Source: Alkalispirochaeta sp.
GTDB lineage: Bacteria > Spirochaetota > Spirochaetia > DSM-27196 > Alkalispirochaetaceae
Length of the DNA: 64,000 nt
Direction: 5' to 3'
Assembly: GCA_965242725.1 (NCBI GenBank)
Contig: CBDESZ010000005.1
Coordinates: 91,577-155,576, forward strand
The notes under the pieces were generated by a model. The model was not told the DNA's origin and made no database searches. It worked only from the letters and a program-made list of their open reading frames with translations. The translations under genes and the position numbers were made by a program. Shown here piece after piece: positions 6,181 to 49,747 of this stretch. Positions within the stretch are counted from its first letter, which is position 1, and each line of letters starts with the position of its first letter.

Positions 6181-7470
6181 TTACTTCACGAGCTGATCGA
6201 TCTCACGCTGGGCGTTCTGCAACGCCACCGGGGGATCAACGTTTCCCCGGAGCGCTTCGTATATCCAGTACTGCAGGCGGTTGGACATATCCCGATACGC
6301 GGGATGGATCGGCCGGTGGTGGACCCCCCCGATCTGCCTTCGCTTGAGACCGATATCGGGATCTTCCCGCAGTGTCGTCTCCTCATCCCATACTTCCCGC
6401 CATACCGGCATCTCTTCCAGATGGCGACGCTGAAATTCCGGGGATGACAGGAAGCGGACAAATCGCCACGCCGTTTCCTTGTTCACGCTGTTGTGTGTCA
6501 CCGAGAGGCCCTGATATCCGCTCACCGTCGTGGTGTCCGCCCCCCGGCGCGCGACGGATCGCGCCGTCGGTATGAGTCCCGCCCGCCCCGTCTCACGAAT
6601 CGGCAGTTCCGACTCATCGATCAGGCGTCCCAGAAAGACCCAGTTCGGTGCAAAGAGCGCGTCTCCGGCGGTAAAGACCTCGGCTGCAAAAACCTCCTCA
6701 CTTTGAAGGGAATAGGGATTGAGGAGACCCCGGTCCAGAAGATCCACCAGGAATGCGAGCGCCTCTTCCGCCCCCGATGTTGTTACATCGATGGCGCCGG
6801 AATGGTCATAGAGATCCCCTCCAAAAGCGCCGGTGAGCCAGACAAACTCACAGACAAGGGCCTCCTGTTTGCGCAAGGGGAGGAAAACGGGAAATTCGAT
6901 GACACCTCTACGGCGGGCGGCAGAGGCCATATCGACCATCTCTTCAAGGGTGGACGGAGGATCATGAAAACCGGCGCGTTCAAGGATGCCCATGTTTGTA
7001 AAGAGGAGCTTGAAGTTAGCGAGAAACGGGACGGCCCACAACGCGCCGCCATAATCAAAGGCGGAGTAAATCTCGGGAACGATATTCCCCCGCACCTCCC
7101 TGGAAAGATCCGGCGGAACGGGATCGATGAGACCCCGCTCGGCAAATTCCGCCGTCCAGATCAAATCAAGAAGAATGATATCGTACGCCCCTTCCGCCAT
7201 ATCCGCGGAATGCATAATCAGGCTGTACTGGTCCTCGTATTCCGCAAAGGTGAGTTCCACATTGATCCCCGTGAGCGCCCGGAATTCCTCCGCCCGCCTC
7301 TGGACATCCGAAGGGGAATACCCGGCCTGGGCCATGTAGATCATGCGGAGTTGCTGCGCCGCCGCCGGAGTTGCAACCGCCTGAGCTGCAACCGCGTCGA
7401 CGGCAGCCGTCAATGAGAGAGACAGGAAAAAAGCCACTCTCCACCGCATAGGATACGGTACATCCGCCAT
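6181..7470 (-). CDS. Extracellular solute-binding protein (family 1)
   Basis: Signal peptide, DLIWTAEFAE motif; directly upstream of the kinase in the same orientation. Confidence 0.85.
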   Translation of the reverse strand: MADVPYPMRWRVAFFLSLSLTAAVDAVAAQAVATPAAAQQLRMIYMAQAGYSPSDVQRRAEEFRALTGINVELTFAEYEDQYSLIMHSADMAEGAYDIILLDLIWTAEFAERGLIDPVPPDLSREVRGNIVPEIYSAFDYGGALWAVPFLANFKLLFTNMGILERAGFHDPPSTLEEMVDMASAARRRGVIEFPVFLPLRKQEALVCEFVWLTGAFGGDLYDHSGAIDVTTSGAEEALAFLVDLLDRGLLNPYSLQSEEVFAAEVFTAGDALFAPNWVFLGRLIDESELPIRETGRAGLIPTARSVARRGADTTTVSGYQGLSVTHNSVNKETAWRFVRFLSSPEFQRRHLEEMPVWREVWDEETTLREDPDIGLKRRQIGGVHHRPIHPAYRDMSNRLQYWIYEALRGNVDPPVALQNAQREIDQLVK

Positions 7471-29929: not shown

Positions 29930-31328
29930 GAGTCCCATAGAGTGGTGTAAAAAGCGGTGGAACTAAACAGCCACCGCGCGTCTCCGGTAAGCTGTGAATC
30001 GACCAAAACACACAGCAAGGAGACGAACACGGTGACCACTGAAAGCATCGCATTGATGGAGCTGATTGAAAAGCACGGCGACAAGGACTTCCTCAGAGAA
30101 ATTGGCCAATGGACCCTTCAGCGGCTTATGGAGTTGGAAGTTGAGCAGCAGGTGGGCGCCGGACCGCACGAGCGGACTGACGATCGGACTACCCATCGTA
30201 ACGGCTATCGGGATCGAACATTGGAGACACGAATCGGATCGCTGTCATTGCGAATTCCGAAGCTTCGGTCCGGTAGCTATTTCCCGTCGTTTCTGGACCC
30301 CCGGAAGAAGAGTGAGCACGCCCTCGTCGCGGTTGTCCAGGAGGCGTACATCAACGGCGTCAGCACCCGTAAGGTCGATGATCTGGTTCAGTCGATGGGA
30401 ATGACCGGGATATCCAAGAGCCAGGTATCGCGGCTTTGCGCGGAACTGGACGAGCAGGTAAAAACGTTCCTGGAACGTCCTCTCAGCGGGGACTGGGCGT
30501 ATGTCTGGTTTGACGCGACGTACGTGAAGTCGCGGAACGATGGACGAGTTGTGAGCCGTGCGATTGTTGTTGCGGTGGGAGTAAGTGCCGAAGGACGCCG
30601 TGAAGTGCTCGGAATCGCCGTCGGACCGGCTGAGACAGAGGCGTTCTGGATGGAGTTTCTGCGTTCCCTGGTAGCACGAGGACTCTCCGGGGTGCGATTG
30701 GTGATCTCCGATGCCCACATCGGGTTGAAGAACGCCATCAGCCAAGTACTGGGAGCAACCTGGCAACGGTGTCGTGTGCACTTCATGCATCAGCCGCGTA
30801 CCGCAGGTACGAGGAACGCGGCGACAGGAATGCGTTGGCCCACGTACCTCGCAAGCAGCATCAGATGGTCGCCGCAGTGATCCGTACCGCATTCGTTCAA
30901 GAGAGCCGAGACGACGCGGTAGCGCAATGGCGGGAGACGGCCGATCGGCTGAGAGATCGTTTTCCGAAACTGGGAGAGCTCATGGATGACGCTGAGGCCG
31001 ATGTTCTCGCATTCATGACGTTCCCGAAAGAACATTGGCGGCAGATATCAAGCACGAACCCGCTGGAACGCATCAACAAGGAGATTAAGCGGCGGACCAA
31101 CGTTGTCGGCATCTTCCCGAATGATGGAGCGATCACCCGTCTGGTAGGAGCTCTGGTGAACGAACAATCGGATGAGTGGCAGGTAACTCGAAAGTATATG
31201 AGCCAGGAGAGCTTGCAGAAGGTTCTCAAACCGGCGTCGGAGCAGCGGATGTTGTCGGCGGAAGGAACGGATATGGTAGCGTAGGCTCAGCTACCGGAGA
31301 CGAAAAGTTACACCACTTGACGGGACGC
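29930..31328 (+). mobile_element. IS256-family insertion sequence
   Basis: Imperfect IRs GAGTCCCATAGAGTGGTGTAA / TTACACCACTTGACGGGACGC; no TSD seen. Confidence 0.88.
30032..31284 (+). pseudogene. IS256 (Mutator) transposase, frameshifted by a 38-bp insertion at 30788-30825
   Basis: RNGYR, DATYVK, SDAH, QRCRVHFM | RNALAHVP, STNPLERINKEIKRR; removing 38 bp restores the frame. Confidence 0.9.
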
Positions 31329-31524
31329 AACACACGAACGGGTTTCTGATTAAATCGCTCGTATTTCGTTGTATCCGGAGAGAAATATTTCTATCTTTCG
31401 AATAACACAGGTACTTATTCTCGCAGATGTACAAGATTAGGAATAACCGATTTCCAGTAAACGGTATTGGCGGCTCATCCGAAAAAGACATCGGTTAGTC
31501 GAAATATGACCAAGGAGGCAATCG

Positions 31525-36600: not shown

Positions 36601-36717
36601 GTATTTCAGTATACATGGAAAAGAAAGCAGGATTGAATGGTTTGTCAAGGGCCGCGTAATTCCCCACCCCAGGGCCATCCATATTCCCCAGTGAAAATAA
36701 GGGTATCCGGGGGGGTG

Positions 36718-37488
36718 TCACGATTTTGGCGGAGCTGATTTTGAGGTGTGGGAGCCGTGTACTTCCTTCCGGTACGAGCGCCCTTTCGAAGTAATGAGTT
36801 TAATCGCTCCCGAGACCATGCGGTCGAGAATAGCACCACCAACGATGGGATCGGGAAAGATGCTGTACCAGTCCTGCGGCGGTCTGTTGGAAGTGAGAAT
36901 GGTCGAGGAGATACCGTTCCGTTCTTCGGCGATGATGTACAGCATCTCCGCCTCATGCTGATCAAGAGAGCGGAAGGCGAAATCATCGAGGATGAGGACA
37001 TCCACGGAACACGCTTTCTTGAGCATCCGTCGTTGCCGATCAGGTGAAGCGGTAAGGAGGCTGGAAAGCAGCCGCTGAGTGCTGCGGAACAGCACGGTGA
37101 ATCCCTGGCGGCATGCCTCGTGGCCGATCGCTTTCACAATGAACGTCTTCCCGATTCCGGGAGGACCGGCAATAACGAGGTTGGTGTGCTGCTGGATAAA
37201 CCGGCATGATGCCAGGTCGCGGATCGTTGCCGCCGGAAAGACTTCATCATTGAAACGGAAATCGAAGCGATCGAAGGTTTCCCGGGTTCCCAGGGATGCC
37301 TGACTCAACCGTTTGGTGAAGTTGTTCGCCTCCCGGTTTGCCAGTTCGTCGTGGAGAACCAGAGCGAGGAACTCGAGATAACCGAGGCTCTGCTCTTGAG
37401 CCTCAATCAACCGGTGATCAAGCTGCTGGTACGCTCCGGGCATGCGTAGTCGTTTAAGTTCGTGTTCAATTTCGTGAGCCTGCTGCAT
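36718..37488 (-). CDS. istB: IS21 helper ATPase IstB
   Basis: GPPGIGKT, LILDDF, TSNRP...AILDR. Confidence 0.93.
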   Translation of the reverse strand: MQQAHEIEHELKRLRMPGAYQQLDHRLIEAQEQSLGYLEFLALVLHDELANREANNFTKRLSQASLGTRETFDRFDFRFNDEVFPAATIRDLASCRFIQQHTNLVIAGPPGIGKTFIVKAIGHEACRQGFTVLFRSTQRLLSSLLTASPDRQRRMLKKACSVDVLILDDFAFRSLDQHEAEMLYIIAEERNGISSTILTSNRPPQDWYSIFPDPIVGGAILDRMVSGAIKLITSKGRSYRKEVHGSHTSKSAPPKS

Positions 37489-39079
37489 CGAGTTCCTCCT
37501 GAAGGTCAAAGAAATAGGTGATATCCCGTGCCATCGTCATATCGACAGCGGGCGTGGTAGAGAGTGTTCCTCGCCTGCCGGCGGTCCTGTCTAGTTCAAA
37601 CAATGCTTTGAACGTTTTGGGAACGACGATCCGGCGGCGCAGTGCGGTGAGGCAGTGAGTATCAAAGTCCGGATGTTCGCGGAATTCATCCATAACACGG
37701 AGTAGTCCCTGAGCCTGACGGGCGTTGAGATACGCGTGAGGCGCCAGGATTGCGGAAATCAGATCCCGGGCTGCACTCCCGTACGAATTCGCGCGCTGGA
37801 GAAGGTGTTGTGGATAGGACCCGTCCATCATCGCCTGTTTTTCCGCCGGAAAGTCGCTGGTGAAGTAATACACCCGCGTTCCCGGCTCATATGGATAGAT
37901 GCGGATACGCTCCGGGCCATGAAAAATCTCGATCAGGCGCCTGGTAGCGCGTACCGCCACCTGTTTTCCCCGGTATTTCGCCGGAACGGCAAAGCGCATC
38001 TTGTGGTAGCTCAGAAAGCCATCACCCTTGTGAACTTTCGGATAGGCCCAGGAAGCCGGCTCGAATCGCGATTCCGGGAGCGGTTTGAGTGCATTTTGCT
38101 CGGCCACAAACGCTTCCTCAGGTGGAATACGAGTCGTTCCATGCGGTTCCGTACCGTATTCGTCGACACACCATTGAAGCATGTAGCGGTTCATTTCCGT
38201 GAGGGTCGCGGTGGGATGGACTGCTCTGATGACACGATACGCTTCCCTGACAACCGGAATAATCCGCTCGACCTTCCCTTTATCTGTTGCCGTCACTACC
38301 CGAGCGGTATTCACAAAGGTTCCGTAATACTCAGCCACTTCTGCCAGAGACCGGTTCAGCTGCGGGTCCCAGAGGTCCGGTTTAATCACCGCAGCCTTCA
38401 GGTTATCCACCGTGAGAAACTCGGTGACACCGCCGTAGAAATGGAATATCTCAACCACGCTCTCCGCAAAGCTCTGTTCGCTCTGGCTGGTGACCAATTG
38501 GACAAAGGGCTTGCGAGAGTGAGCAAGAATTGCACAGAAGGCGTAGATCGTGCGATTCCGCCCATCCACGGCCAGAAGCCCCATGGTGCCGTAATCAAGT
38601 TGGACCTCCCGACCCGGCGGTAACTCAATACGGATATACGTCTTCTTTGCAACCTCCATTAAACCGTGTTCCCGGGCGAACCGTTTGAACGACGAGTATC
38701 CGATGGAGAGGTTATGGCGCCGGAGGATCACCCGATATGCCGATTTCGGGCGCATCGGTTTTTCGATTTTCCCGTTCTCATCTTTGGACGGAGCGATCAG
38801 TTCGCGCAGTTCATCAAGATGATCAATAAGCTGATCCCTCGCCGGTGTAGACTTCTCACGCGGCTGATCGGCAAGATCTCCTGCCCGTCTCTGAAACGCA
38901 TCCCGGCTGACTGCCAATTCTGCCGGCAGTAGTGACCGCTCCGAGAGAATCCTGATGTATTTCCCGATCGTCTTGCGATCCCATCCAGTGTGTATGGCGA
39001 TCGCGCTTTTGCTTTCTCCGGCGATGGCGCGACGGTATACCTCATAGAGGTGATCAATCTTCAGCATACGGTATCCCAT
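37466..39079 (-). CDS. istA: IS21 transposase IstA
   Basis: PPGREVQLDYG, DNLKAAV, DKGKVER. Confidence 0.93.
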   Translation of the reverse strand: MGYRMLKIDHLYEVYRRAIAGESKSAIAIHTGWDRKTIGKYIRILSERSLLPAELAVSRDAFQRRAGDLADQPREKSTPARDQLIDHLDELRELIAPSKDENGKIEKPMRPKSAYRVILRRHNLSIGYSSFKRFAREHGLMEVAKKTYIRIELPPGREVQLDYGTMGLLAVDGRNRTIYAFCAILAHSRKPFVQLVTSQSEQSFAESVVEIFHFYGGVTEFLTVDNLKAAVIKPDLWDPQLNRSLAEVAEYYGTFVNTARVVTATDKGKVERIIPVVREAYRVIRAVHPTATLTEMNRYMLQWCVDEYGTEPHGTTRIPPEEAFVAEQNALKPLPESRFEPASWAYPKVHKGDGFLSYHKMRFAVPAKYRGKQVAVRATRRLIEIFHGPERIRIYPYEPGTRVYYFTSDFPAEKQAMMDGSYPQHLLQRANSYGSAARDLISAILAPHAYLNARQAQGLLRVMDEFREHPDFDTHCLTALRRRIVVPKTFKALFELDRTAGRRGTLSTTPAVDMTMARDITYFFDLQEELDAAGSRN

Positions 39080-39435
39080 GACCCACAGTCCTCCTGCGCA
39101 TCAGGGTACCGGTATCACCCCATCAGGTGGGGAATATGGATGGCCCTATTGCGGAAAAACTGGGGAATATAAATGGCCCCGTGGGGCTCGGCGGGTGGGG
39201 AATATCCATGGCCCCAACGCCAAATTTATGGGGATTATGCCTGGCCCGCGACATGGTTCTCTTGTCAGATATCGATTATTCAGGCTTTACGTTGTAGAAC
39301 CCTCGGAATACTTTCTCGCATCGATTCCTGTACCTGTGATTTTTCGCAACGGAAGGCAGATAACGAGGCTGTAGAAAAAGTACCACGAATTGGTCCCAGA
39401 CGGTAGAATGGAGAAACGTCCGGCGGGAGGGGCTG

Positions 39436-40992: not shown

Positions 40993-41127
40993 ACGAGAAC
41001 GGCTGGAACGATAGCTCCCCAGGGTGTGTACTCCGGTGATTTCGGACAGGGATTCCGGGCGAAAACGGACAGCTGCCTGAAGGAACAAAATCCTCGCCAT
41101 CACTCATAACAGCTGTCCGTTTTCAGG

Positions 41128-41877
41128 TCAATCTACCGCATAGAGTTTCCTCCTCACCGTGTCGCCGGTGATCTCAATTCGGTGAGAATGAAATGCAAGC
41201 CGATCCATGATTGCGTCGGCGATCGTCGGGTCGCCTATGAGGGCATGCCAGTTCTCTACCGGTTGCTGAGAGATGATCATTGTTGATTTCCGTCGGTGCC
41301 GGTCCTCAAGGATTTCAAGGAGAGCCATTCGAGAGGTATGGTTGAGCGGCTCCAGGCCGAAGTCGTCGATGAGCAGTAATGCGCTCTTCATGATTCGTGT
41401 CAGATGTTTCAGGTATGTTCCATCCGCCTTGGCCGCTTCGATTTCGTTGAACAGGCGAGATGCGGAAAAGTACGCCACGGAATGGCCGTGCTGGCACGCC
41501 TGATGCCCGAAGGCTGATCCGAGAAAGCTTTTTCCACAACCGGTTGGACCGGTGATGAGAAGATCCTGCCCCCGGGATATCCACGAGCAGTCGGCGAGCC
41601 GAAGAATCTGGTTCTTGTCCAGATTCCGATCCAGGGTGTAGTCGATATCTTCCAATGCAGCCTGGTAGCGGAACCGGGCAGCCCGGGTAAGCCGATCGAG
41701 CCGTCGGTTGTGCTTCTCATCCCATTCGGCGTCGATCAGGTACGTGATCGTCTCGTCGATGGTGAGATCCATGGTTTTTCCGGTTTCCTGAAGCGTGCGA
41801 AACGCCTGGGCCATTCCATGCAGGCGCATCTCGGTCATTCTGTTGATCGTTGCCTGATTATTGTTCATGGTGCTCAT
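41128..41877 (-). CDS. istB: IS21 helper ATPase IstB
   Basis: GPTGCGKS, LLIDDFG, DPTIADAIMDRL. Confidence 0.93.
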   Translation of the reverse strand: MSTMNNNQATINRMTEMRLHGMAQAFRTLQETGKTMDLTIDETITYLIDAEWDEKHNRRLDRLTRAARFRYQAALEDIDYTLDRNLDKNQILRLADCSWISRGQDLLITGPTGCGKSFLGSAFGHQACQHGHSVAYFSASRLFNEIEAAKADGTYLKHLTRIMKSALLLIDDFGLEPLNHTSRMALLEILEDRHRRKSTMIISQQPVENWHALIGDPTIADAIMDRLAFHSHRIEITGDTVRRKLYAVD

Positions 41878-41879
41878 CC

Positions 41880-43427
41880 TTACTTGTAGATTGCCGAATC
41901 ACGCAGATTCTTGTGGTCGGTGAAAAGAAGTACCCGATCATCCTCGTGATCATCCTTCTCCTGGCGCAAAATCTCGTCCAGATACCCACGGACATCCCGA
42001 TAGCTGATTCTGGAGTAGTTAAGGGCTCGTCGACAGGCCAAGTTCAGTCGATCTGAACCGACTTCCTGTGCCATATTCAGCACCCCAAGACAGGACTTGT
42101 ATGCCTGTTGCTCATGGGGTTTATCGCTCAGGAGCCGAGAAATCACCAGGAACGTCTCTTCTCCGATGGAATTGGCCCAGGAGGTGAACTTTTCGGCAGA
42201 CCAGGATTGAAAAAACCGGTGGTGCTTGGGCATGTGCTCGGCTTTTGTCGTGTACTGCCCTTTTTTCCGGCTGCGCCGGTGCTGGGCAACGCGTACGTTG
42301 TCGTGATATACCGCGACGATACGCTCATCGAAGATCACCTTTACCTGCACACCCTTCAACTGCCAGGGAACGGAGTAGTAGTGCTTATCTTCCGACAGGA
42401 TAAAGTGATAGTCCGGTGCAACCTTGTGGTTCTCGAAGGATTTCATCGGATACGGCGCGCTGGGCAGCGTCTTCAGCGCCGATCGTTCGATCTCCTCAAA
42501 CAACTGCCGTCGAGAGATTTGCAGCTTGGTCAATTCTCGAGTATTGTGGGTCTCAAGGCGTTCGGCGATGGCCTGGTTGAGCTCAGCCAACGAATGGAAC
42601 GTCCTGCCGTACAGCGGGGCGAAAATCCGCTGGTAGGTTAATTTGACGGTGTTCTCCGCCAGGGCCTTGTCTTTTGGTTTGTATGCCCTGGCGGGAATAA
42701 CCGTCGTTCGGTAATACTCGGCAAAATCGTCGAACAGCGGATTGATTTCCGGTTCGTATTTGCTTGCCTTGAGCACGGCCGCCTTCAGATTATCCGGTAC
42801 CAGAGCGCGGGGAACTCCGTCGAAATAGCGCAACGCCCGCTCGGTTGAACGGAGAAACGCTTCCTGTTTCTGGCTCTCGTCAGCTTCGACATACGCGAGT
42901 TGGCTTGCTCCGAGTACCGCAACGAATACCTCTGCCTGCTGTTCTTCGCCGTCTCGATAGTACGGGAAGGTCTCACCGGCGTAATCGATGTAGGCCATGT
43001 CTCCCGGTTCGTGAGGTTGCCGCATGGTGACCTCGCCGGATTCCAGGAACATGCCAAAGTGGTGACAGAACTGGCTGTAGCGATACCCGTCGGGGTGCTG
43101 CGTCCGGTACTCCTCCCACAACAGCTGCTTGGTCATTCCCCGGCGCTTTAACCGTTTTGCGTATTCCGGGAAGAGCGCCATCACCTGCGTGTACTGCTCG
43201 CTTTCTTCCTGCTTTTTCTCTTCGAACAGGCCAAGCAGTTCGTCATCGGTGAGCTCAAGGCTCTTCTCAAAGCTGATTCCGGTGCGTCTGAATCGCACCA
43301 GGTATTCACTGATCGTCGTCTTCGATACTCCGGTGAGTCGCGATACGTCCCGAAGCCCCAGTTTGCTCTCGTAGGTGAGCGCAAGCAATTTGCGCATGTG
43401 TTTCACAGGTATCCTCTCTCTCGGCAT
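41880..43427 (-). CDS. istA: IS21 transposase IstA
   Basis: IDYAG, VPDNLKAAV, PKDKALAEN. Confidence 0.93.
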   Translation of the reverse strand: MPRERIPVKHMRKLLALTYESKLGLRDVSRLTGVSKTTISEYLVRFRRTGISFEKSLELTDDELLGLFEEKKQEESEQYTQVMALFPEYAKRLKRRGMTKQLLWEEYRTQHPDGYRYSQFCHHFGMFLESGEVTMRQPHEPGDMAYIDYAGETFPYYRDGEEQQAEVFVAVLGASQLAYVEADESQKQEAFLRSTERALRYFDGVPRALVPDNLKAAVLKASKYEPEINPLFDDFAEYYRTTVIPARAYKPKDKALAENTVKLTYQRIFAPLYGRTFHSLAELNQAIAERLETHNTRELTKLQISRRQLFEEIERSALKTLPSAPYPMKSFENHKVAPDYHFILSEDKHYYSVPWQLKGVQVKVIFDERIVAVYHDNVRVAQHRRSRKKGQYTTKAEHMPKHHRFFQSWSAEKFTSWANSIGEETFLVISRLLSDKPHEQQAYKSCLGVLNMAQEVGSDRLNLACRRALNYSRISYRDVRGYLDEILRQEKDDHEDDRVLLFTDHKNLRDSAIYK

Positions 43428-43734
43428 TCCGTACTCCCTCACAATGATGTTACCCACCAGTTTGCCGGGAGTGCCCGTATTGATCGAGGATCTCTTCTGT
43501 CAGGCTGAATCGATTCCGGCGCTCCGGAAAAACTGTCCGTTTTCCGCCGGAATCGGTGTCCGGATTACGCCGGAATCACTGTCCGCTTTCCACCGGAATA
43601 CGTGTCCGTTTTGGGCCGGTGTACACAAGGGAACGGCAGCCGGGTATTAGTCCGCTCAGCCCGGGAAATCTGTCCTCCTCGGGGGCCCTGAAGAGAACCG
43701 AACTTCCGCCAAAACGGACTTTTTCTACAGGCAA

Positions 43735-43991: not shown

Positions 43992-44804
43992 CTATTCAGA
44001 CAAGAGTTCGTAGCGATCTCTTTCGTTGTCGGCAAGGCGTTCGTACTCCCTTCGATCAATTGCGATAATTTCCTTTGAGGACAGCCCCCTAATCGCGGCC
44101 TTTACCATTACGAAGTCCTCGCTGAATGACCTAAGCACAGTTTCGGGGTCAAAGCCCTTGCGTGCAAACGCAAATCCCAATCCGGGAAGATTCTGCAACC
44201 GTGAAGCGAGGTTGATGCACGGTCCGACGTAATCATCCCCTGATCCAATCGAGTAAACATTACCTTTTGCAATACCGCATCTAAGCATTTCTGGTGGATC
44301 AGGGTATTTTTTCGACACTTTAGGAAGGAAGCTATCTTCATACTCAAAGCAGATATTGCTCATCGACATGATTATGTTGTGTTGGGCTTCTCTTTTTACG
44401 CCAGCGACATTCCAAAGAACAAGAATCCCGTCGCCGAGGAATTTTGTATAAAACGGCAAACTGTGATATAGACGGTAGCCATCGTCGTCTTCTTTCATGA
44501 TTGTTTCTGTCCGAATAGAATCAAACAGCCAGCTTAAGAATTCTGCAAGAAAGGAATTGACAAATAGTTCAGGTTCAGTTTGCGAACAAAAATGCGTAAA
44601 TCCTTTTAGGTCGAAAATCGCGCAGATCGCTTTGGTTATGTCCGATTCGACATTAAGGTTCCCGAGTCTCAACAGGCCGACGTCGAACGAATCGATTTTT
44701 TGTTTGTCAAAGACGCGAACCCTCTTCCCGTTACGACTAACGAGTCTTGAATCCTTCTTGGACGCAACGTATCGCAAAACGCCTCCTTTCGTACTCCCGG
44801 CCAT
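43992..44804 (-). CDS. Stand-alone class III nucleotide cyclase-domain protein
   Basis: IFDLKGFT, KFLGDGIL, LRCGIAKG, DYVGPCINLASRLQ. Confidence 0.85.
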   Translation of the reverse strand: MAGSTKGGVLRYVASKKDSRLVSRNGKRVRVFDKQKIDSFDVGLLRLGNLNVESDITKAICAIFDLKGFTHFCSQTEPELFVNSFLAEFLSWLFDSIRTETIMKEDDDGYRLYHSLPFYTKFLGDGILVLWNVAGVKREAQHNIIMSMSNICFEYEDSFLPKVSKKYPDPPEMLRCGIAKGNVYSIGSGDDYVGPCINLASRLQNLPGLGFAFARKGFDPETVLRSFSEDFVMVKAAIRGLSSKEIIAIDRREYERLADNERDRYELLSE

Positions 44805-44855: not shown

Positions 44856-44965
44856 TCATAACGCAAAGGTGACCTGCGTGGCGTGATTGGCGTGGCCGTT
44901 GCCGGCGGAGCCGATTCGCAACGGCCATGACAATGGCCACGACAGGTCAACCGGTCTTGTTACAC
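44856..44965 (-). repeat. attC (110 bp) of non-coding cassette A
   Basis: L boxes GGT[T]GACC/GGTCACC; near-identical to 47040-47141. Confidence 0.88.
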
Positions 44966-45205
44966 TGCGATCGACACAGTTTTCGGAGTATCGCCATGCG
45001 GATATCTGGCACCAGGTTCTCGCCCGCGAATGTCTCGATTTGCTCGAAGGGCAAATCGAGCGTACGTGGGCGCGGAGCAGAAAAGGCACCGACAACAACG
45101 GGGTTGCCCCGGATTCCTTCCCGATTTTCGATTTAAAAAAATTGATCCGATCGGATGGTTTGTCCCTCACGTCCTACCAACGGAGCCGGTCATTTGCAGT
45201 GTAAC
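44959..45205. other. ORF-less structured gene cassette, copy A
   Basis: Bounded by GTTACACTGC/GCAGTGTAAC; paralog at 48752-49001. Confidence 0.85.
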
Positions 45206-45317
45206 GTTGGCTTGAGCTGCTGGCTGCGACCCGACCGAAGGGAGGGACTGGCGCGGTTCTTGCCGAAGAGCAAGAACCGTGACAGAAGCAACAGACTGCT
45301 CGAAGCCGTTGTTATGC
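45199..45317 (-). repeat. attC (119 bp)
   Basis: GCATAAC-N5-CTT[C]GAGC...GCTCAAG-N5-GTTACAC, with the canonical extrahelical base, 2 nt after the DUF262 stop. Confidence 0.92.
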
Positions 45318-45319
45318 AG

Positions 45320-46981
45320 TCAGCGATTCACAACGTCCTTGCAGATCGAGACAATGGCTGCTGTGCGCTGTGCCAGAAAATCGTCGTAGTTATCGTAAGA
45401 CAGGTTTTCAGGATGATCAGAATAGTGATCAACGAGGAGATGTTTTTTTATCTTGATTCCGGCATCCCTCAACTCTGCGAAATGGTTGGCGGGATCCTGA
45501 GCCCGTTTTCGAAGGTTCTCGGTTGCACCACAAAATCTGTAGTTGCCGATGTGGTTGATTCGGCTGGTTGGCAAATTTCTCAACTTGCTCTTCGGAAATA
45601 TATGGTCAATGTGTGGTTCGTTTCCTTTGTACCGAACGTGGAACGGACTACTTCCGTGCTGTTCGACATATATCAGGTTTAGGACGATAAAGCGCAACCG
45701 CATGTCAATAGAATCGCCGGTCAGTTCTACCTGTCTGTTCTGCCGCCGAAAATATGACTTTATCTCAGCAAGTGGGAAATCGCTAGGCGCACTCTTTTGC
45801 TGGATCTGAGCGCACGTGTTAAGCACTTGGTCTGTTCGAGCCGAAAACCAATTGAACATTTGAGAACCGTAGTAGTACGCCTTCAACAACGGGTAGGCTG
45901 TGACTGGTGGAGAAGGTGACCCGTAGAAATAGTTGAACACCGGAATCAGGGCGTTGTAAGAGCGCACGACCTTGTCAGAGTACAGTTGAAGCTGGTTCTT
46001 CAAAAAATCTGATAACTGCAGAAACGCGCGTTCTAATTTATTCCAATTGTCCTGAATCTTGGCCAACACCTGGGCGCCTGCGTTTGAAGCCAGATACTTG
46101 GGCGACAATACTGCTGATTCACCAACAGCAACCATAATCGCTTTCAATGCGAAAGTCTTATCGAAAAGTAAGCGCCCGTCGCTGTTGAGATCAGCCACCA
46201 CGTTTTCGATGTTTTCTTCGACCGGCGTCCACGCCTCCTTCATGACCGCAAACAGCAAATCCGATGGTTCGAGTTTCGTACCTCCGGAATTCACTCGCAC
46301 GAAAATGTTCAAAATGTTTTTGTAATCATATTCTTCGGACGCGGTGCCATCGAGTTCATCAACCCACAGGTACGTGTCTTCACGCAGTATTGATGCAAGT
46401 TGTGCCACATTTCTTCGAACTAAACGTTGGCGTTGCCGTCGAGCATCTGACGATTCCTCGAGAGAATCATCCAACTGGTCATTAATCTCATCGGAAATAT
46501 CATTGGCGTTTTTCTTGTTGGCGTAGAGTGAACTAATCGCGAACCATGGGAAGTCAAGCTGGTCGTTACTCAATTCAAAACGATACGAGATCCCGTCTTC
46601 AATCTCTTCGTCGCCTGACAGAAGATCGATGAACAGTCGCTTGTCACCGAAAGTTCCATCATATGCGAAGAAGAGGGATTGAAGACGTTGTTGACCATCA
46701 AGTACAAGGACTTTGGTCCTACCCTCTTGGCTCACCGTCGAATCGTAGTAGTCTCGGAGCACCGGATCCTCTTCGTAGTTGTCCATGAACCTCCGACATT
46801 GGATTTCGTCATCGGTTTTCCAAAATAGGAGCGTCTGAAACGGGTAGTTCTTCATCAAAGTGTCAAAGAACCTGACCACTTGCTGAAAATCCCACACGAA
46901 CGGACGTTGAATATGCGGTAGGTACAACTGTCGGTTCCGAGACTGAAGAAGACTGTTCAGAGATATTGGTTTATAGGCCAT
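45320..46981 (-). CDS. DUF262 + HNH (DUF1524-like) protein, GmrSD-like
   Basis: QRPFVW, LDGQQRL, FVRVNSGG; C-terminal HIDHIFPKS...IGNY...EN. Confidence 0.88.
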   Translation of the reverse strand: MAYKPISLNSLLQSRNRQLYLPHIQRPFVWDFQQVVRFFDTLMKNYPFQTLLFWKTDDEIQCRRFMDNYEEDPVLRDYYDSTVSQEGRTKVLVLDGQQRLQSLFFAYDGTFGDKRLFIDLLSGDEEIEDGISYRFELSNDQLDFPWFAISSLYANKKNANDISDEINDQLDDSLEESSDARRQRQRLVRRNVAQLASILREDTYLWVDELDGTASEEYDYKNILNIFVRVNSGGTKLEPSDLLFAVMKEAWTPVEENIENVVADLNSDGRLLFDKTFALKAIMVAVGESAVLSPKYLASNAGAQVLAKIQDNWNKLERAFLQLSDFLKNQLQLYSDKVVRSYNALIPVFNYFYGSPSPPVTAYPLLKAYYYGSQMFNWFSARTDQVLNTCAQIQQKSAPSDFPLAEIKSYFRRQNRQVELTGDSIDMRLRFIVLNLIYVEQHGSSPFHVRYKGNEPHIDHIFPKSKLRNLPTSRINHIGNYRFCGATENLRKRAQDPANHFAELRDAGIKIKKHLLVDHYSDHPENLSYDNYDDFLAQRTAAIVSICKDVVNR

Positions 46982-47039
46982 TGTTTTACCCCAATCTAAT
47001 CATATCACAGGTTTGTTGGAGTTCGAGTCGAAATTGACT

Positions 47040-47141
47040 GCATAACGCAGAGGTGACCTGCGTGGCGTGATTGGCGTGGCCGTTGCCGGCGCAGCCGATA
47101 GCAACGGCCATGACAATAGCCACGACAGGTCAACTGTCTTG
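47040..47141 (-). repeat. attC of non-coding cassette B, split by IS110 (remainder 48752-48758)
   Basis: Removing the IS restores ...CAACTGTCTTGTTACAC, matching attC 44856-44965. Confidence 0.88.
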
Positions 47142-47217
47142 ATACTCATTAAGGCCTCCCCTGGGAGGTGCGGTAAACTACCGCTATACCCAATCCCTTC
47201 CCGAAGGAGGAGACCTA

Positions 47218-48318
47218 ATGAGGTTCTATAACGAACAGCACGAATTCTACGTTGGTATCGACCATGGTTGCGTTCCTCGGCTCCGCCTGCGGTACGCAAC
47301 CTAAGCAAGAGAGATGTTCGCCTGCGTCCTCAATCGTGATGGCTACGTTCTTCTTCATCGAAACATGAAAGCCGATCGCGATCACCTTGATCGGCTGGTA
47401 CGACGCTTTCCCGGTGACATAGTGATCGCGGTGGAATGCATCTTCACCTGGTATTGGATTGCAGACTTCTGCGATGAACGGGATATCCCATTTGTCTTGG
47501 GGCACGCGCTCTACATGAAAGCCATCCACGGCGGGAAGTCCAAGAACGATAAGATCGATTCACATAAGATCGCAACGATGCTGCGGGCCGGGATGCTTCC
47601 GGAAGCGTATGTGTATCCTCGGGAAATGCGTGCAACACGAGATCTCCTTCGGCGACGCGAATACTTCATGCACCAACAGTCGGAACTTCTGACCCATGTG
47701 AAGAACACCAACACCCAGTACAATTATCCCGCTTTCCAAAAACGAATAGCGGCGACGGCGAATCGACAAGGATTAGAGGAGCGATTCGAAGAACCAAGCG
47801 CCCGAAAAAGCATCGAAGCTGACCTTCATCTCCTGGACGTCTATCACCGCGTTCTACTCGACCTGGAAGCAGAGATAAAACGGCAGGCGAAGCACCACGA
47901 TCCGGTCGCATTTCACCTCCTCCAGACGATCCCCGGGGTTGGTCCAATTCTCTCGCTGGTCATTCTTTATGAGATCCATGACATCAATCGCTTTCCAAAG
48001 GTCGGAAACTTCATCTCCTACGCCCGCCTGGTCAAATGTGCTCACGAGTCCGCCGGGAAACGATCGGGAAGTGGCAATAACAAAATCGGAAATGCGCATC
48101 TGAAATGGGCATTCAGCGAAGCGGCAGTCATTTTCCTCCGTGATCAGGAGGATGCGAAACGTCTACAGCAACGACTCATCCAGAAGTACGGAAAGGCCAA
48201 GGCACTTTCGATCATCGCTCAGAAACTCGGAAGAACTGTCTATTTTATGTTGAAGAGAAAGGAGCCTTTTGTAGCGAAGCGATTCTTTGGAGACGGCGTG
48301 CAGGAGCCGGCAGCATAA
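47218..48318 (+). pseudogene. IS110-family DEDD transposase interrupted by a ~36-bp hairpin insertion with an adjacent in-frame TAA (47302-47304)
   Basis: GGAGG RBS, MRFYNEQHEFYVGID...AREMFAC; VEC, KNDKIDS, IPGVG, ESAGK, GNAHLKWAF. Confidence 0.88.
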
Positions 48319-48455
48319 CTGGACCACCACGCGACGGGTTGTCTTTCGATGAGGACCTTCTATGCAGCACGATTGCCAACTCCCCATCATGCCCACCAGT
48401 CGCGAGTCCCTAGCGTTTTGATTAGACCTGTACGTCGGTCTCCTCTTTTGCAAAT

Positions 48456-48680
48456 ACGAGTGATGCGGGATATTTCCCGCGGTTTGTCCCGCTCCGACCT
48501 GCCCAAGTAACTGCGACCATATGGATCGCGTCCTTTGAATCAGGCGGATGTCGGGTACCGAGAGAATTCTACGGCACGCAGCAGGTGTGACCGTCGATAC
48601 GTGTTTGGTGCAGACCGCTTGTCAGCACCCGGACCTCAGAATTGCGAATCAAGCGGCGTGATATCTCCGGCATCACTCGT
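48456..48680 (+). ncRNA. Candidate bridge/seek RNA in the IS110 3' non-coding region
   Basis: ACGAGTGATGC (48456) pairs with GCATCACTCGT (48670) and encloses two stem-loops with internal loops. Confidence 0.55.
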
Positions 48681-48751
48681 TCGGATATTGGAAACGGCTA
48701 TCGCCGGGTCCGGCTACCACTTTGTCATTGACAGCAGGAGGCCTAATACGT

Positions 48752-49001
48752 GTTACACTGCGATCGATACAGATTTCGGAGGTTCGCCAGCCGGACAACT
48801 GGCACCATGTTCTCGCCCACGAATGTCTCGATTTGCTCGAAGGGCAAATCGAGCGTACGTGGGCGCGGAGCTGAATAGGCACTGACAACAACGGGGTAAC
48901 CCCGGATTCCTTCTCCATTTTCGATTAAAAAATAAAATTGACCTGATCGGTTGGTTTGTCCCTCACGTCCTCCCAACGGAGCCGGTCATTTGCAGTGTAA
49001 C
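48752..49001. other. ORF-less structured gene cassette, copy B
   Basis: Diverged paralog of 44959-45205. Confidence 0.85.
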
Positions 49002-49120
49002 GAAAAGGTTACGTGCTGGCTGCGGCCCGAGCGATAGCGAGGGATTGGCGCGATTGTTGCCGGCGAGAGCCGAGCAACAATCGTGACAAAGCAACAGACA
49101 CGTGAACCGTCGTGTTATGT
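48995..49120 (-). repeat. attC (126 bp)
   Basis: ACATAAC...GGTT[C]ACG / CGTAACC...GTTACAC; 13-bp complementarity to the core at 49936-49948. Confidence 0.9.
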
Positions 49121-49121
49121 C

Positions 49122-49418
49122 TCACGTATTCCCACGACGTATATGTACTTCGGTTACCGCTCCTAACGCGTGAGCCACTCGCTTCAAAAACGCCAAAGAT
49201 AGATTCCGATAATTACCCGATTCGAGCCGGGCGATCGCCGGTTGTGACGTTCCGACCCGAGACGCCAATTCCTTCTGGGTCAAGTTTGCCATCTTTCTGA
49301 GGGCGATAACTTCTTTCGCGACCTCAAATTCTTCGGATGTTTCGTCATATTCTCGTCGGAACGTATCGTCGCGAAGTTCTTCCTCCAGGAGGTCATCATA
49401 TCTTTTCGATTCCATCAT
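49122..49418 (-). CDS. HigA-like HTH antitoxin
   Basis: LTQKELASRVGTSQPAIARLESG. Confidence 0.9.
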   Translation of the reverse strand: MMESKRYDDLLEEELRDDTFRREYDETSEEFEVAKEVIALRKMANLTQKELASRVGTSQPAIARLESGNYRNLSLAFLKRVAHALGAVTEVHIRRGNT

Positions 49419-49747
49419 TATTTCTCCTCCAAATACTGCGTCTTGATCCTCAGTGCCCGTTCAATTTCTCGACGATCCGTTTTATCCGATTTTTTGACGA
49501 ATCCTGATGTCACGACGAATACGCGTTCGCCCTCGAAGAAATAGACCGATCGGCAAATATTCGATCCAAGTCGAACCCGCAATTGACTCAGATCCGATCC
49601 AACCAGTTTTCGTGAATGGGGCAGCGGCAATTCGGGTCCAAACTGTTTCAGTAATTCGATTGATCGAAACGCTTTCGCCCGCATCTTCGCGTCGAGGGAA
49701 CGCAGAAAAACGATTGCCGGTTCCAGCAGAAGAACGTCCCATTCCAT
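49418..49747 (-). CDS. HigB/RelE (Gp49-like) toxin
   Basis: LPLPHSRKL...LRVRLGSNICR...SGFVKKSDKTDRREIERA. Confidence 0.9.
   Translation of the reverse strand: MEWDVLLLEPAIVFLRSLDAKMRAKAFRSIELLKQFGPELPLPHSRKLVGSDLSQLRVRLGSNICRSVYFFEGERVFVVTSGFVKKSDKTDRREIERALRIKTQYLEEK

What the first reader, a model, noticed from the sequence alone, without database searches (positions are those of the whole stretch)
44959..49001. Duplicated ORF-less, hairpin-rich integron cassette (candidate ncRNA or ssDNA element)
Seen: two ~250-bp cassettes (44959-45205, 48752-49001) with identical 10-bp core complementarity (GTTACACTGC/GCAGTGTAAC) and near-identical attC sites, but scattered substitutions and a 3-nt indel. 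The frames open in copy A on each strand are stopped in copy B (TGA on +, TAA on -). The hairpin CTCGATTTGCTC-GAA-GGGCAAATCGAG is invariant. It sits inside a CGCCC(A/G)CG/CGTGGGCG stem where the variant keeps pairing as G-T/U only on the + strand. The stem CGGGG/CCCCG is kept while its loop changes (TTG vs TAA). Inference: selection acts on a + strand structure, antisense to the array and on the attC bottom strand. It could be a structured RNA or a signal on the excised single-stranded cassette. In array order each copy directly precedes a putative defence cassette (DUF262, cyclase).
Basis: partly seen in the sequence, partly recalled or inferred. Interest (0 to 1): 0.8.

Follow-up and report, generated by a model that had tools for sequence, protein, structure and literature searches.

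The report
Multi-copy gene-less integron cassette
This is a small mobile integron cassette that carries no gene, only a recombination site and a conserved short hairpin, and it belongs to an already described class of gene-less cassettes rather than being a clearly new structured RNA.

Summary
Two 247/250-bp copies (22 substitutions and a 3-nt indel) are the bodies of one 343-bp integron cassette, each with its own attC. They lie in a minus-strand cassette array with no integrase (a CALIN).

I found more copies:
- a 73%-identical allele (C) on another contig of the same genome;
- a copy identical to C, in a different array context, in a second species of the genus (D);
- A-like and C-like copies in another organism's sequencing run and a marine metagenome, including a tandem-or-circular cassette junction.

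Homology stops exactly at the attC core sites in every context, so the unit is mobile. No reading frame is open in all alleles, neither long ORF has a protein relative, and nothing matches Rfam.

The claimed selection on a plus-strand structure does not survive the divergent allele. The strand bias disappears, most changed pairs are broken, and covariation is not significant. Only a 10-12-bp palindromic hairpin persists, with one compensatory pair, and it reads alike on both strands.

Best reading: a new member of the known gene-less (ORF-less) cassette class, acting in cis or selfish. Interest is modest.

The parts
44862..45204 (-). Cassette copy A, whole mobile unit by the G|TT convention (343 bp).
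   Evidence: Homology to copies B, C and D starts and stops at the attC cores. The unit length equals the 343-nt 'goes back' joint seen in run X5.
44856..44965 (-). attC of copy A (R'' GTGTAAC at 44965-44959, R' GTTATGA at 44862-44856 on the minus strand).
   Evidence: The bottom (plus) strand folds as an imperfect hairpin: -36.3 kcal/mol as DNA, z -5.80, 0 of 200 shuffles as good. It is 92.5% identical to B's attC and 86.6% to C's.
45021..45072 (.). Central hairpin of copy A. The inner palindrome is at 45034-45060. The block 45027-45078 is identical in A and B.
   Evidence: The inner 10 bp are kept in C/D with one compensatory pair (columns 78/100). The outer stem has two A.G mismatches in C.
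45099..45111 (.). Small CGGGG-loop-CCCCG hairpin of copy A.
   Evidence: It was flagged as a weak terminator-like site on the minus strand. Two of its 5 pairs are broken in C, and changes in it are listed for the X6 contigs.
48752..49001 (-). Copy B body (250 nt).
48814..48865 (.). Central hairpin of copy B (inner palindrome 48827-48853).
48892..48904 (.). Small GC hairpin of copy B (loop TAA).
47040..47141 (-). Distal part of copy B's attC, separated from the body by the IS.
   Evidence: 94.6% identical to A's attC over 93 nt; sequence read.
47142..48751 (+). IS110-family insertion sequence inside copy B's attC, next to the R'' core. Boundaries are good to a few bases.
   Evidence: The transposase at 47314-48318 carries DEDD_Tnp_IS110 and Transposase_20 domains. 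The flanks were read. An X3 contig shows 1616 letters between 44951 and 44958.
45205..45317 (-). attC of the DUF262 cassette, directly upstream of copy A in array order.
   Evidence: Hairpin fold z -3.83; 78% identical to the HigA-cassette attC.
49001..49120 (-). attC of the HigB/HigA-type TA cassette, directly upstream of copy B.
   Evidence: Hairpin fold z -5.19; Gp49 and HTH_3 genes at 49122-49747.
45320..46981 (-). DUF262/GmrSD-type cassette gene, lying between copies B and A.
   Evidence: Pfam GmrSD_N 4.3e-29; PADLOC HEC-05 1e-74 over the full length.
43992..44804 (-). 270-aa cyclase-like cassette gene, downstream of copy A.
   Evidence: PF00211 is only sub-threshold (E 0.15). There are 101 matches at E <= 0.001, including the window's own protein, mostly about 260 aa. 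Several are labelled class 3 adenylate cyclase by their source and two carry PF00211.

Best explanation
It is a gene-less (ORF-less) integron cassette: a 343-bp mobile unit made of a ~240-bp non-coding body and its own ~105-bp attC site. Integron recombination copies and moves it between cassette arrays.

Shown:
- The unit has exact attC-core boundaries in at least four sequence contexts.
- It has three copies in this genome.
- An identical copy sits in a second species of the genus.
- Another organism has a junction joining the cassette's end to its start.
- No conserved reading frame exists.

Inferred: the body acts, if at all, in cis and at the nucleic-acid level. Its only conserved internal feature is a 10-12-bp palindromic hairpin that reads the same on both strands. 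That could be a protein-binding palindrome, or an RNA or DNA hairpin that punctuates transcription between independently promoted neighbouring cassettes (TA pairs, defence genes). By analogy with tested gene-less cassettes it may also carry promoter activity. The wider plus-strand fold seen in copies A and B is a feature of that young lineage and is not a conserved structure.
For: Cassette status:
- The R''/R' cores and hairpin-forming attC are in place.
- Neighbouring cassettes have their own attCs.
- Homology between A, B, C and D begins and ends at the cores while the flanks differ.

Mobility and copy number:
- My blastn found copy C at 72.9% identity over the whole body, with the same attC type.
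- Model R1 found copy D in G003, identical to C over body and attC but with different neighbours.
- Runs X5 and X6 hold A-like copies whose loose ends start at 45206-45207. X5 has a 45201->44859 joint (tandem or circle) and a C-like loose end.
- Integron integrases over the TIGR02249 cut-off occur in 8 of 22 genomes of the family, including G003. None was found in G000.

Non-coding:
- Every one of the six frames has a stop in at least one allele, and indels shift frames.
- The TGA that closes the plus-strand frame is shared by B, C, D and X6, so A's long ORF is derived.
- Neither ORF has protein relatives among 5.8 billion clusters, and neither has a Pfam hit.

The hairpin core is kept in C/D, with one C-G to T-A compensatory pair and U.G to U-A.

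Precedent: passages read in PMC11014356 and PMC6557892 report gene-less cassettes in chromosomal integrons, most with promoter activity, including cassettes from spirochaete (Treponema) integrons.
Against: No function is shown.
- No sigma-70-like site of at least 8 of 12 matches is shared by the three alleles on either strand. PMC11014356 states that such promoters cannot be predicted in silico.
- The downstream cyclase cassette has its own promoter-like site, so it may not need one from this element.
- Conservation of the central block is only suggestive. The A-B invariant run has p = 0.089, and C differs at about 10 of 52 positions there against 25% overall.
- A and B do fold better on the plus strand, through G.U pairs.
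- Substitutions are rarer in columns paired in the consensus fold (16% vs 35%, p = 0.0007). That test is circular, because the consensus fold prefers conserved columns. It vanishes with single-sequence folds in 7 of 8 comparisons.
Confidence: 0.55

Rival explanations
1. Selfish or neutral 'empty' cassette. The body is decayed or filler DNA with no function for the host. The unit persists and multiplies only because its attC recombines efficiently, and the hairpin is a relic.
For: The attC is better conserved than the body (86.6-92.5% vs 73-90%). Most pairs of the predicted folds are broken in the divergent allele. No promoter motif, Rfam match or ORF was found. It is multi-copy within arrays and tandem or circular in X5. 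It is the only whole cassette duplicated in this array.
Against: The inner palindrome is retained across 27% divergence with a compensatory double change. Two blocks (columns 61-109 and 193-251) stay at 80-88% identity against 75% overall. Body length is kept at 247-250 nt in all alleles. C and D are 100% identical across two species.
Confidence: 0.25
2. A plus-strand element, antisense to the array and on the attC bottom strand, is under selection. It is either a structured small RNA or a fold of the single-stranded cassette that influences recombination.
For: A and B fold much better on the plus strand (z -5.19 vs -2.49 for A; central hairpin -42.5 vs -27.9 kcal/mol), through several G.U pairs and no A.C pairs. 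The G/A variant opposite T keeps pairing only on that strand. U.G to C-G and U.G to U-A changes in C fit RNA-like evolution. An extended -10-like TGTTACACT at the R'' core is present in all alleles, and a weak terminator-like hairpin follows on the plus strand in B. Cassette-borne sRNAs and antisense promoters have precedent (passages in PMC6557892 and PMC11014356).
Against: The strand bias is absent in C/D. Only 7 of 32 changed pairs are kept. Covariation is not above the shuffles and the alifold covariation term is positive. The small hairpins carry breaking changes in C and in the X6 contigs. The -10-like motif is a by-product of the attC core and recurs in neighbouring attCs. There is no Rfam match and no RNA data on it.
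Confidence: 0.15
3. It encodes a small protein, either in the array-sense frame running into the attC (81-104 aa in A and B) or on the plus strand (105 aa in A).
For: ORFs of 104 and 105 aa in A and 81 aa in B. B has an ATG start after a GGAG-like motif.
Against: No frame is open in all alleles, and C/D have stops or frame shifts in each. The A/B versus C amino-acid differences are about as many as neutral change predicts. There are no homologues and no Pfam hit. The sense ORF would have to read through the whole attC and stop in the next cassette.
Confidence: 0.03

Closest known systems
Gene-less cassettes of Vibrionaceae superintegrons (Blanco et al., NAR 2024, PMC11014356; abstract and passages read)
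   Same: An attC-bounded cassette without a gene in a chromosomal array, lying among TA and other cassettes. A regulatory rather than coding role is proposed.
   Different: Those cassettes were shown by reporters, RT-qPCR and 5'-RACE to carry promoters, mostly on the sense strand. Here nothing is measured and no shared sigma-70-like motif is seen. This one is from a spirochaete array without integrase, is GC-rich (about 54%), and is built around a conserved palindrome.
ORF-less gene cassettes of Treponema-type integrons from the oral metagenome (Tansirichaiya et al., Sci Rep 2019, PMC6557892; abstract and passages read)
   Same: ORF-less cassettes in spirochaete integrons. That paper reports 13 of 63 oral cassettes as ORF-less, with TA cassettes carrying their own promoters alongside.
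   Different: Promoter activity was shown there and not here.
sRNA-Xcc1, an integron-cassette-encoded trans-acting sRNA of Xanthomonas (Chen et al. 2011; seen only as cited in PMC6557892)
   Same: Precedent for a non-coding cassette whose product is an RNA.
   Different: No Rfam family, sRNA-Xcc1 or any other, matched at gathering or at E <= 5 beyond chance hairpin hits. No transcript is known for this cassette.
CALIN (cluster of attC sites lacking an integron integrase); the term is recalled, not taken from a call
   Same: An array of attC-bounded cassettes, with no IntI in the window or over the cut-off in the genome.
   Different: The genome is 92% complete, so an unassembled intI cannot be excluded. 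Relatives do have IntI.

Membership tests
Integron gene cassette | Own attC with inverse core (RYYYAAC-like) and core (GTTRRRY-like) sites | tested here: met
   GTGTAAC...GTTATGA in A, GTTATGC in B and GTTATGT in C.
Integron gene cassette | attC bottom strand folds into an imperfect hairpin | tested here: met
   DNA fold -36.3 kcal/mol, z -5.80, 0 of 200 shuffles as good. B's site folds poorly as it stands (z +0.98) because the IS splits it.
Integron gene cassette | A discrete unit whose homology ends at the G|TT crossover in different contexts | tested here: met
   A, B, C and D share body plus attC, and the flanks diverge at the cores. X5 and X6 loose ends start at 45206-45207, and X5 has a 343-nt unit joint.
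Integron gene cassette | Lies in an array next to an integron integrase and attI | tested here: not met
   The array is present. The best TIGR02249 match in G000 scores 77 bits against a 265-bit cut-off, and the array is bounded by fumarase. This fits an integrase-less array, not a complete integron. 8 of 22 genomes of the family have IntI.
Integron gene cassette | attC recognised by a dedicated attC model (IntegronFinder/HattCI) | not testable with these tools
   No attC covariance model is available here.
Gene-less / ORF-less cassettes | No ORF that fills the cassette or is conserved | tested here: met
   Six-frame comparison of three alleles; no homologues; no Pfam hit.
Gene-less / ORF-less cassettes | Promoter activity on the sense and/or antisense strand | not testable with these tools
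   Consensus scans find no site shared by all alleles, and PMC11014356 reports that in-silico prediction fails. No RNA run covers the element.
Structured non-coding RNA | Match to a curated RNA family | tested here: not met
   Rfam 15: 0 matches at gathering score over the window. The only matches at E <= 5 are to miRNA/snoRNA models at E 0.63-2.4.
Structured non-coding RNA | Covariation supporting a conserved fold | tested here: inconclusive
   Only 3 distinct sequences. 2 of 68 pairs are compensatory, 58 of 500 shuffles do as well, and the alifold covariation term is +2.46. 7 of 32 changed pairs are kept.
Structured non-coding RNA | A transcript with defined ends | not testable with these tools
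   The runs laid were contigs. The one RNA run covered only 45244-45316.
MITE / IS remnant | Terminal inverted repeats with target-site duplication, independent of attC | tested here: not met
   The 10-bp 'inverted repeat' is the R'/R'' core pair of the attC. No duplication flanks it.

The most novel reading that the evidence does not exclude
The cassette is a mobile, protein-free regulatory module. Its own attC core supplies an extended -10 element that drives a ~140-160-nt plus-strand (antisense) RNA, built around the conserved hairpin. This RNA, or the same fold on the single-stranded bottom strand, would modulate either expression of the upstream neighbouring cassette or the cassette's own excision. 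That would explain why the unit is repeatedly duplicated and is shared unchanged between species.
Probability: 0.12. Interest if true: 0.6.

Novelty: new member of a known kind. Interest (0 to 1): 0.3.

Why it matters
Gene-less cassettes are a small but recurrent fraction of chromosomal integron arrays. Experimental work so far covers Vibrionaceae and oral Treponema. This family gives a compact test case from a marine spirochaete lineage: two alleles 27% apart, multiple copies per genome, identical copies in two species, and one conserved palindrome. The question it can address is whether such cassettes are regulators, recombination helpers or simply parasites of the integron machinery. It also shows that a two-copy comparison can suggest strand-specific structural selection that a third, more distant allele removes.

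Tried and rejected
Searches for more copies that found nothing useful:
- DNA searches with the body found only 22-33-nt chance matches: 99 genomes of the order, 401 of the class, plasmids.
- These DNA-mode searches also missed copies C and D, so they are weak evidence of absence.
- The exact 27-nt hairpin had 0 matches in genome contigs.
- The hairpin with a free loop gave 43 loci in metagenome contigs. None extends beyond about 44 nt by blastn, so they are chance palindromes.
- The degenerate hairpin gave 15 loci in genome contigs. One is real (L076); the other 14 match only the 21-27-nt hairpin. It had 0 matches in viral contigs.
- Model R1 found nothing new in 150 further class genomes. The G033 hit (25 bits) has many non-standard pairs and I treat it as chance.

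RNA evidence:
- The one RNA run laid (X19) covered only 45244-45316, a neighbouring attC, and says nothing about the element.
- RNA-labelled runs of the same species label held next to none of the words.

Other readings considered and dropped:
- An operator used elsewhere in the genome: the palindrome occurs only in the three copies.
- The central hairpin as a second attC: its AAC/GTT cores are in the wrong arrangement (read).
- Retron msr/msd or a group II intron remnant: no Rfam signal.
- An intrinsic terminator: only 5-bp stems with poor T-runs.
- A sigma-54 site at CTGGCAC: the spacing is wrong (read).

The lower substitution rate in consensus-paired columns is rejected as evidence, because the test is circular.


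Full report
**What is there.**

The genes around them are on the minus strand, and each is followed by an imperfect inverted repeat that folds as single-stranded DNA:
- GNAT, a Gp49/HTH toxin-antitoxin pair, DUF262/GmrSD, and a 270-aa ORF;
- the inverted repeats fold far better than shuffles, with z -3.8 to -5.8.

So the array runs from high to low coordinates and the window's plus strand is the attC bottom strand.

In array order the layout is:
- HigB/HigA-type TA cassette and its attC (49001-49120);
- copy B;
- DUF262 cassette and its attC (45205-45317);
- copy A;
- the 270-aa cassette;
- IS21 copies.

Each copy is a complete cassette, made of a body plus its own attC (A: 44856-44965).

The '10-bp core complementarity' is the R'/R'' core pair that every cassette carries at its two ends. 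It also forms the terminal 12-bp stem of the predicted fold.

Copy B's attC is interrupted next to its R'' core by a ~1.6-kb IS110-family element:
- the transposase at 47314-48318 carries DEDD_Tnp_IS110 and Transposase_20 domains;
- the rest of the attC lies at 47040-47141 and is 94.6% identical to A's;
- a contig of run X3 shows the same 1616 extra letters.

No integron integrase is in the window. None passes the TIGR02249 cut-off in the 92%-complete genome (best 77 bits against 265). By contrast, 8 of 22 genomes of the family have one.

**More copies.**
The DNA mode of the genome search reported only A and B. My own blastn against the laid genome found a third copy (C):
- it lies on contig C6 (L058:5817-6064) and is 72.9% identical over the whole body;
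- it has the same attC type, 86.6% identical;
- it sits at the edge of another array, about 380 nt from a tRNA-Met gene.

A covariance model of the body's core (R1) gave these results:
- it found a fourth copy (D) in G003, a genome of the same genus, and nothing else convincing in 99 genomes of the order;
- it found nothing new in 150 further genomes of the class;
- D is identical to C over body and attC, but its flanks differ from the cassette boundaries outward;
- D lies between a HigB/HigA pair and a BrnT/CopG-like pair.

A genome contigs record titled as an uncultured Spirochaeta sp. MAG (L076) carries the same copy at the same contig coordinates. I count it as the same assembly. It suggests that the window comes from a spirochaete.

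Laying public runs added further copies:
- another organism's run (X5) and a marine metagenome (X6) hold A-like copies, whose unlike flanks begin at 45206-45207;
- X5 also has a C-like copy;
- X5 has a contig that joins 45201 back to 44859, the cassette's end joined to its start, meaning either two tandem units or a circle;
- that joint is 343 nt, exactly the unit length by the G|TT convention.

Within this array it is the only whole cassette present twice. The unit is therefore a real, mobile, multi-copy cassette.

**Coding or not.**
- In a six-frame comparison of A, B and C, every frame has a stop in at least one allele, and small indels shift frames between alleles.
- A's 105-aa plus-strand ORF is closed by a TGA shared by B, C, D and X6, so A's open state is derived.
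It stops early in C, would have to read through the whole attC, and has a junk-like composition.
- Neither long ORF has a relative among 5.8 billion protein clusters or a Pfam match.

The cassette is non-coding.

**Structure.**
Copy A folds well on the plus strand (z -5.19) and less well on the minus strand (z -2.49). Much of that comes from the attC-derived terminal stem. Without it the z-scores are:

| Copy | Plus strand | Minus strand |
|---|---|---|
| A | -2.41 | -0.14 |
| B | -4.03 | -1.82 |
| C | -1.56 | -1.41 |

The strand bias of A and B sits in the 63-nt central hairpin, which uses several G.U pairs. Its energies in kcal/mol are:

| Copy | Plus strand | Minus strand |
|---|---|---|
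| A | -42.5 | -27.9 |
| B | -42.7 | -31.8 |
| C | -24.4 | -27.5 |

In C the outer stem carries two A.G mismatches, and the CGGGG/CCCCG hairpin loses two of its five pairs.

The covariation tests give no support:
- RNAalifold gives a positive (penalising) covariation term, with 2 compensatory pairs of 68.
- In the pair-count control, 58 of 500 shuffles reach the observed paired fraction and compensatory count, and 27 of 500 reach the covariation score.
- With folds predicted from single sequences, which avoids circularity, 32 of the 70 inner pairs of A's plus-strand fold change in C and only 7 stay paired. For the minus-strand fold the figures are 33 of 75 and 13.
- The apparent deficit of substitutions in consensus-paired columns is an artefact of how a consensus fold is chosen, and I do not use it.

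What does persist is the inner palindrome. It is 12 bp with one U.G pair in A and B, and a perfect 10 bp in C/D. It shows one C-G to T-A double change and one U.G to U-A change. It is equally good on both strands, and it occurs nowhere else in the genome.

The 52-nt block invariant between A and B has permutation p = 0.089. No difference is listed inside it for X5 or X6, but that table is truncated.

**Known families.**
Rfam has nothing at gathering score. At E <= 5 it gives only chance hairpin matches.

The literature describes this kind of object:
- Gene-less cassettes occur in Vibrionaceae superintegrons, and most of those tested drive transcription, mainly on the sense strand. Some carry antisense promoters, and the authors state that in-silico promoter prediction fails (PMC11014356, abstract and passages).
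- ORF-less cassettes occur in Treponema-type integrons (13 of 63 oral cassettes), some with promoter activity. That paper cites the cassette-borne sRNA-Xcc1 (PMC6557892, abstract and passages).

Here no sigma-70-like site of at least 8 of 12 matches is shared by all alleles on either strand. The downstream cyclase-like cassette has its own promoter-like site.

**How it most likely works.**
Shown: it is a non-coding cassette that spreads as a discrete attC-bounded unit.

Inferred: spread is by integron-integrase recombination, supplied in trans or in the past, because G000 has no detectable IntI.

Inferred, with low certainty: the body's conserved palindrome acts in cis. It could be a protein-binding site, or a hairpin that affects transcription or RNA stability between neighbouring, independently promoted cassettes. 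Some promoter activity is possible, by analogy with tested gene-less cassettes.

My estimates for the four readings are:
- non-coding cassette acting in cis: about 0.55;
- purely selfish or neutral cassette: about 0.25;
- a small protein: about 0.03.

**The neighbours.**
The DUF262 protein matches the PADLOC candidate HEC-05 over its full length (1e-74).

The 270-aa protein is only sub-threshold for the class III cyclase domain (E 0.15). A search found 101 matches at E <= 0.001, including the window's own protein, mostly about 260 aa. Several are labelled class 3 adenylate cyclase by their source.

Copies C and D precede an unknown 69-aa ORF and a TA pair, so 'precedes a defence cassette' is not a property of the family.

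**Verdict.**
This is a sound observation of a real element, but an ordinary one for integron arrays: a new member of the known gene-less cassette class. The structural-selection argument rested on two close copies and is not upheld by the distant allele.

Noticed in passing
window 47142-48751: A single-copy IS110-family element (DEDD transposase, plus strand) is inserted in copy B's attC right next to the R'' core. Short inverted sequences (TTAAGGCCTCC / GGAGGCCTAAT) lie near its ends. This resembles the attC-targeting IS1111 group (name recalled; only a search listing was seen).
   Followed up: partly
L058:5716-6064 and L063:1405-1765: Copies C (G000) and D (G003, another species of the genus) are 100% identical over about 350 bp of body plus attC, while their flanks are unrelated. 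This points to recent cassette exchange between the two lineages.
   Followed up: partly
window 44859/45201 (run X5): A 210-nt contig of another organism joins the cassette's attC end directly to the cassette start (343-nt unit). This is either a tandem duplication or an excised circle.
   Followed up: no
window 43992-44804: A stand-alone ~260-aa protein family with 101 matches (including the window's own protein), mostly unannotated. It is weakly class III cyclase-like, has no PADLOC match, and is carried here as a single-gene cassette.
   Followed up: partly
window 36642-39265 and 41021-43632: Two different IS21-type elements (transposase plus IstB). Each has 99.8-100% identical copies on other contigs (C16, C4, C18). 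They interrupt the array.
   Followed up: no
window 31159-31331 vs G000:C6:126282-126454: A 173-bp stretch that is 84% identical between this array and the array holding copy C, just downstream of the 69-aa ORF cassette. It is probably another shared attC or cassette end.
   Followed up: no
L058:6065-6135: Upstream of copy C, two GTT-type core sites lie 68 nt apart with no recognisable attC hairpin, about 380 nt from tRNA-Met (6441-6513). This may be the degenerate start of that array.
   Followed up: no
method (vs 31, 56): The DNA mode of the genome search missed the 73%-identical copies C and D. Plain blastn (word size 7) and a covariance model both found them, so negative DNA-mode results should be read with care.
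   Followed up: yes
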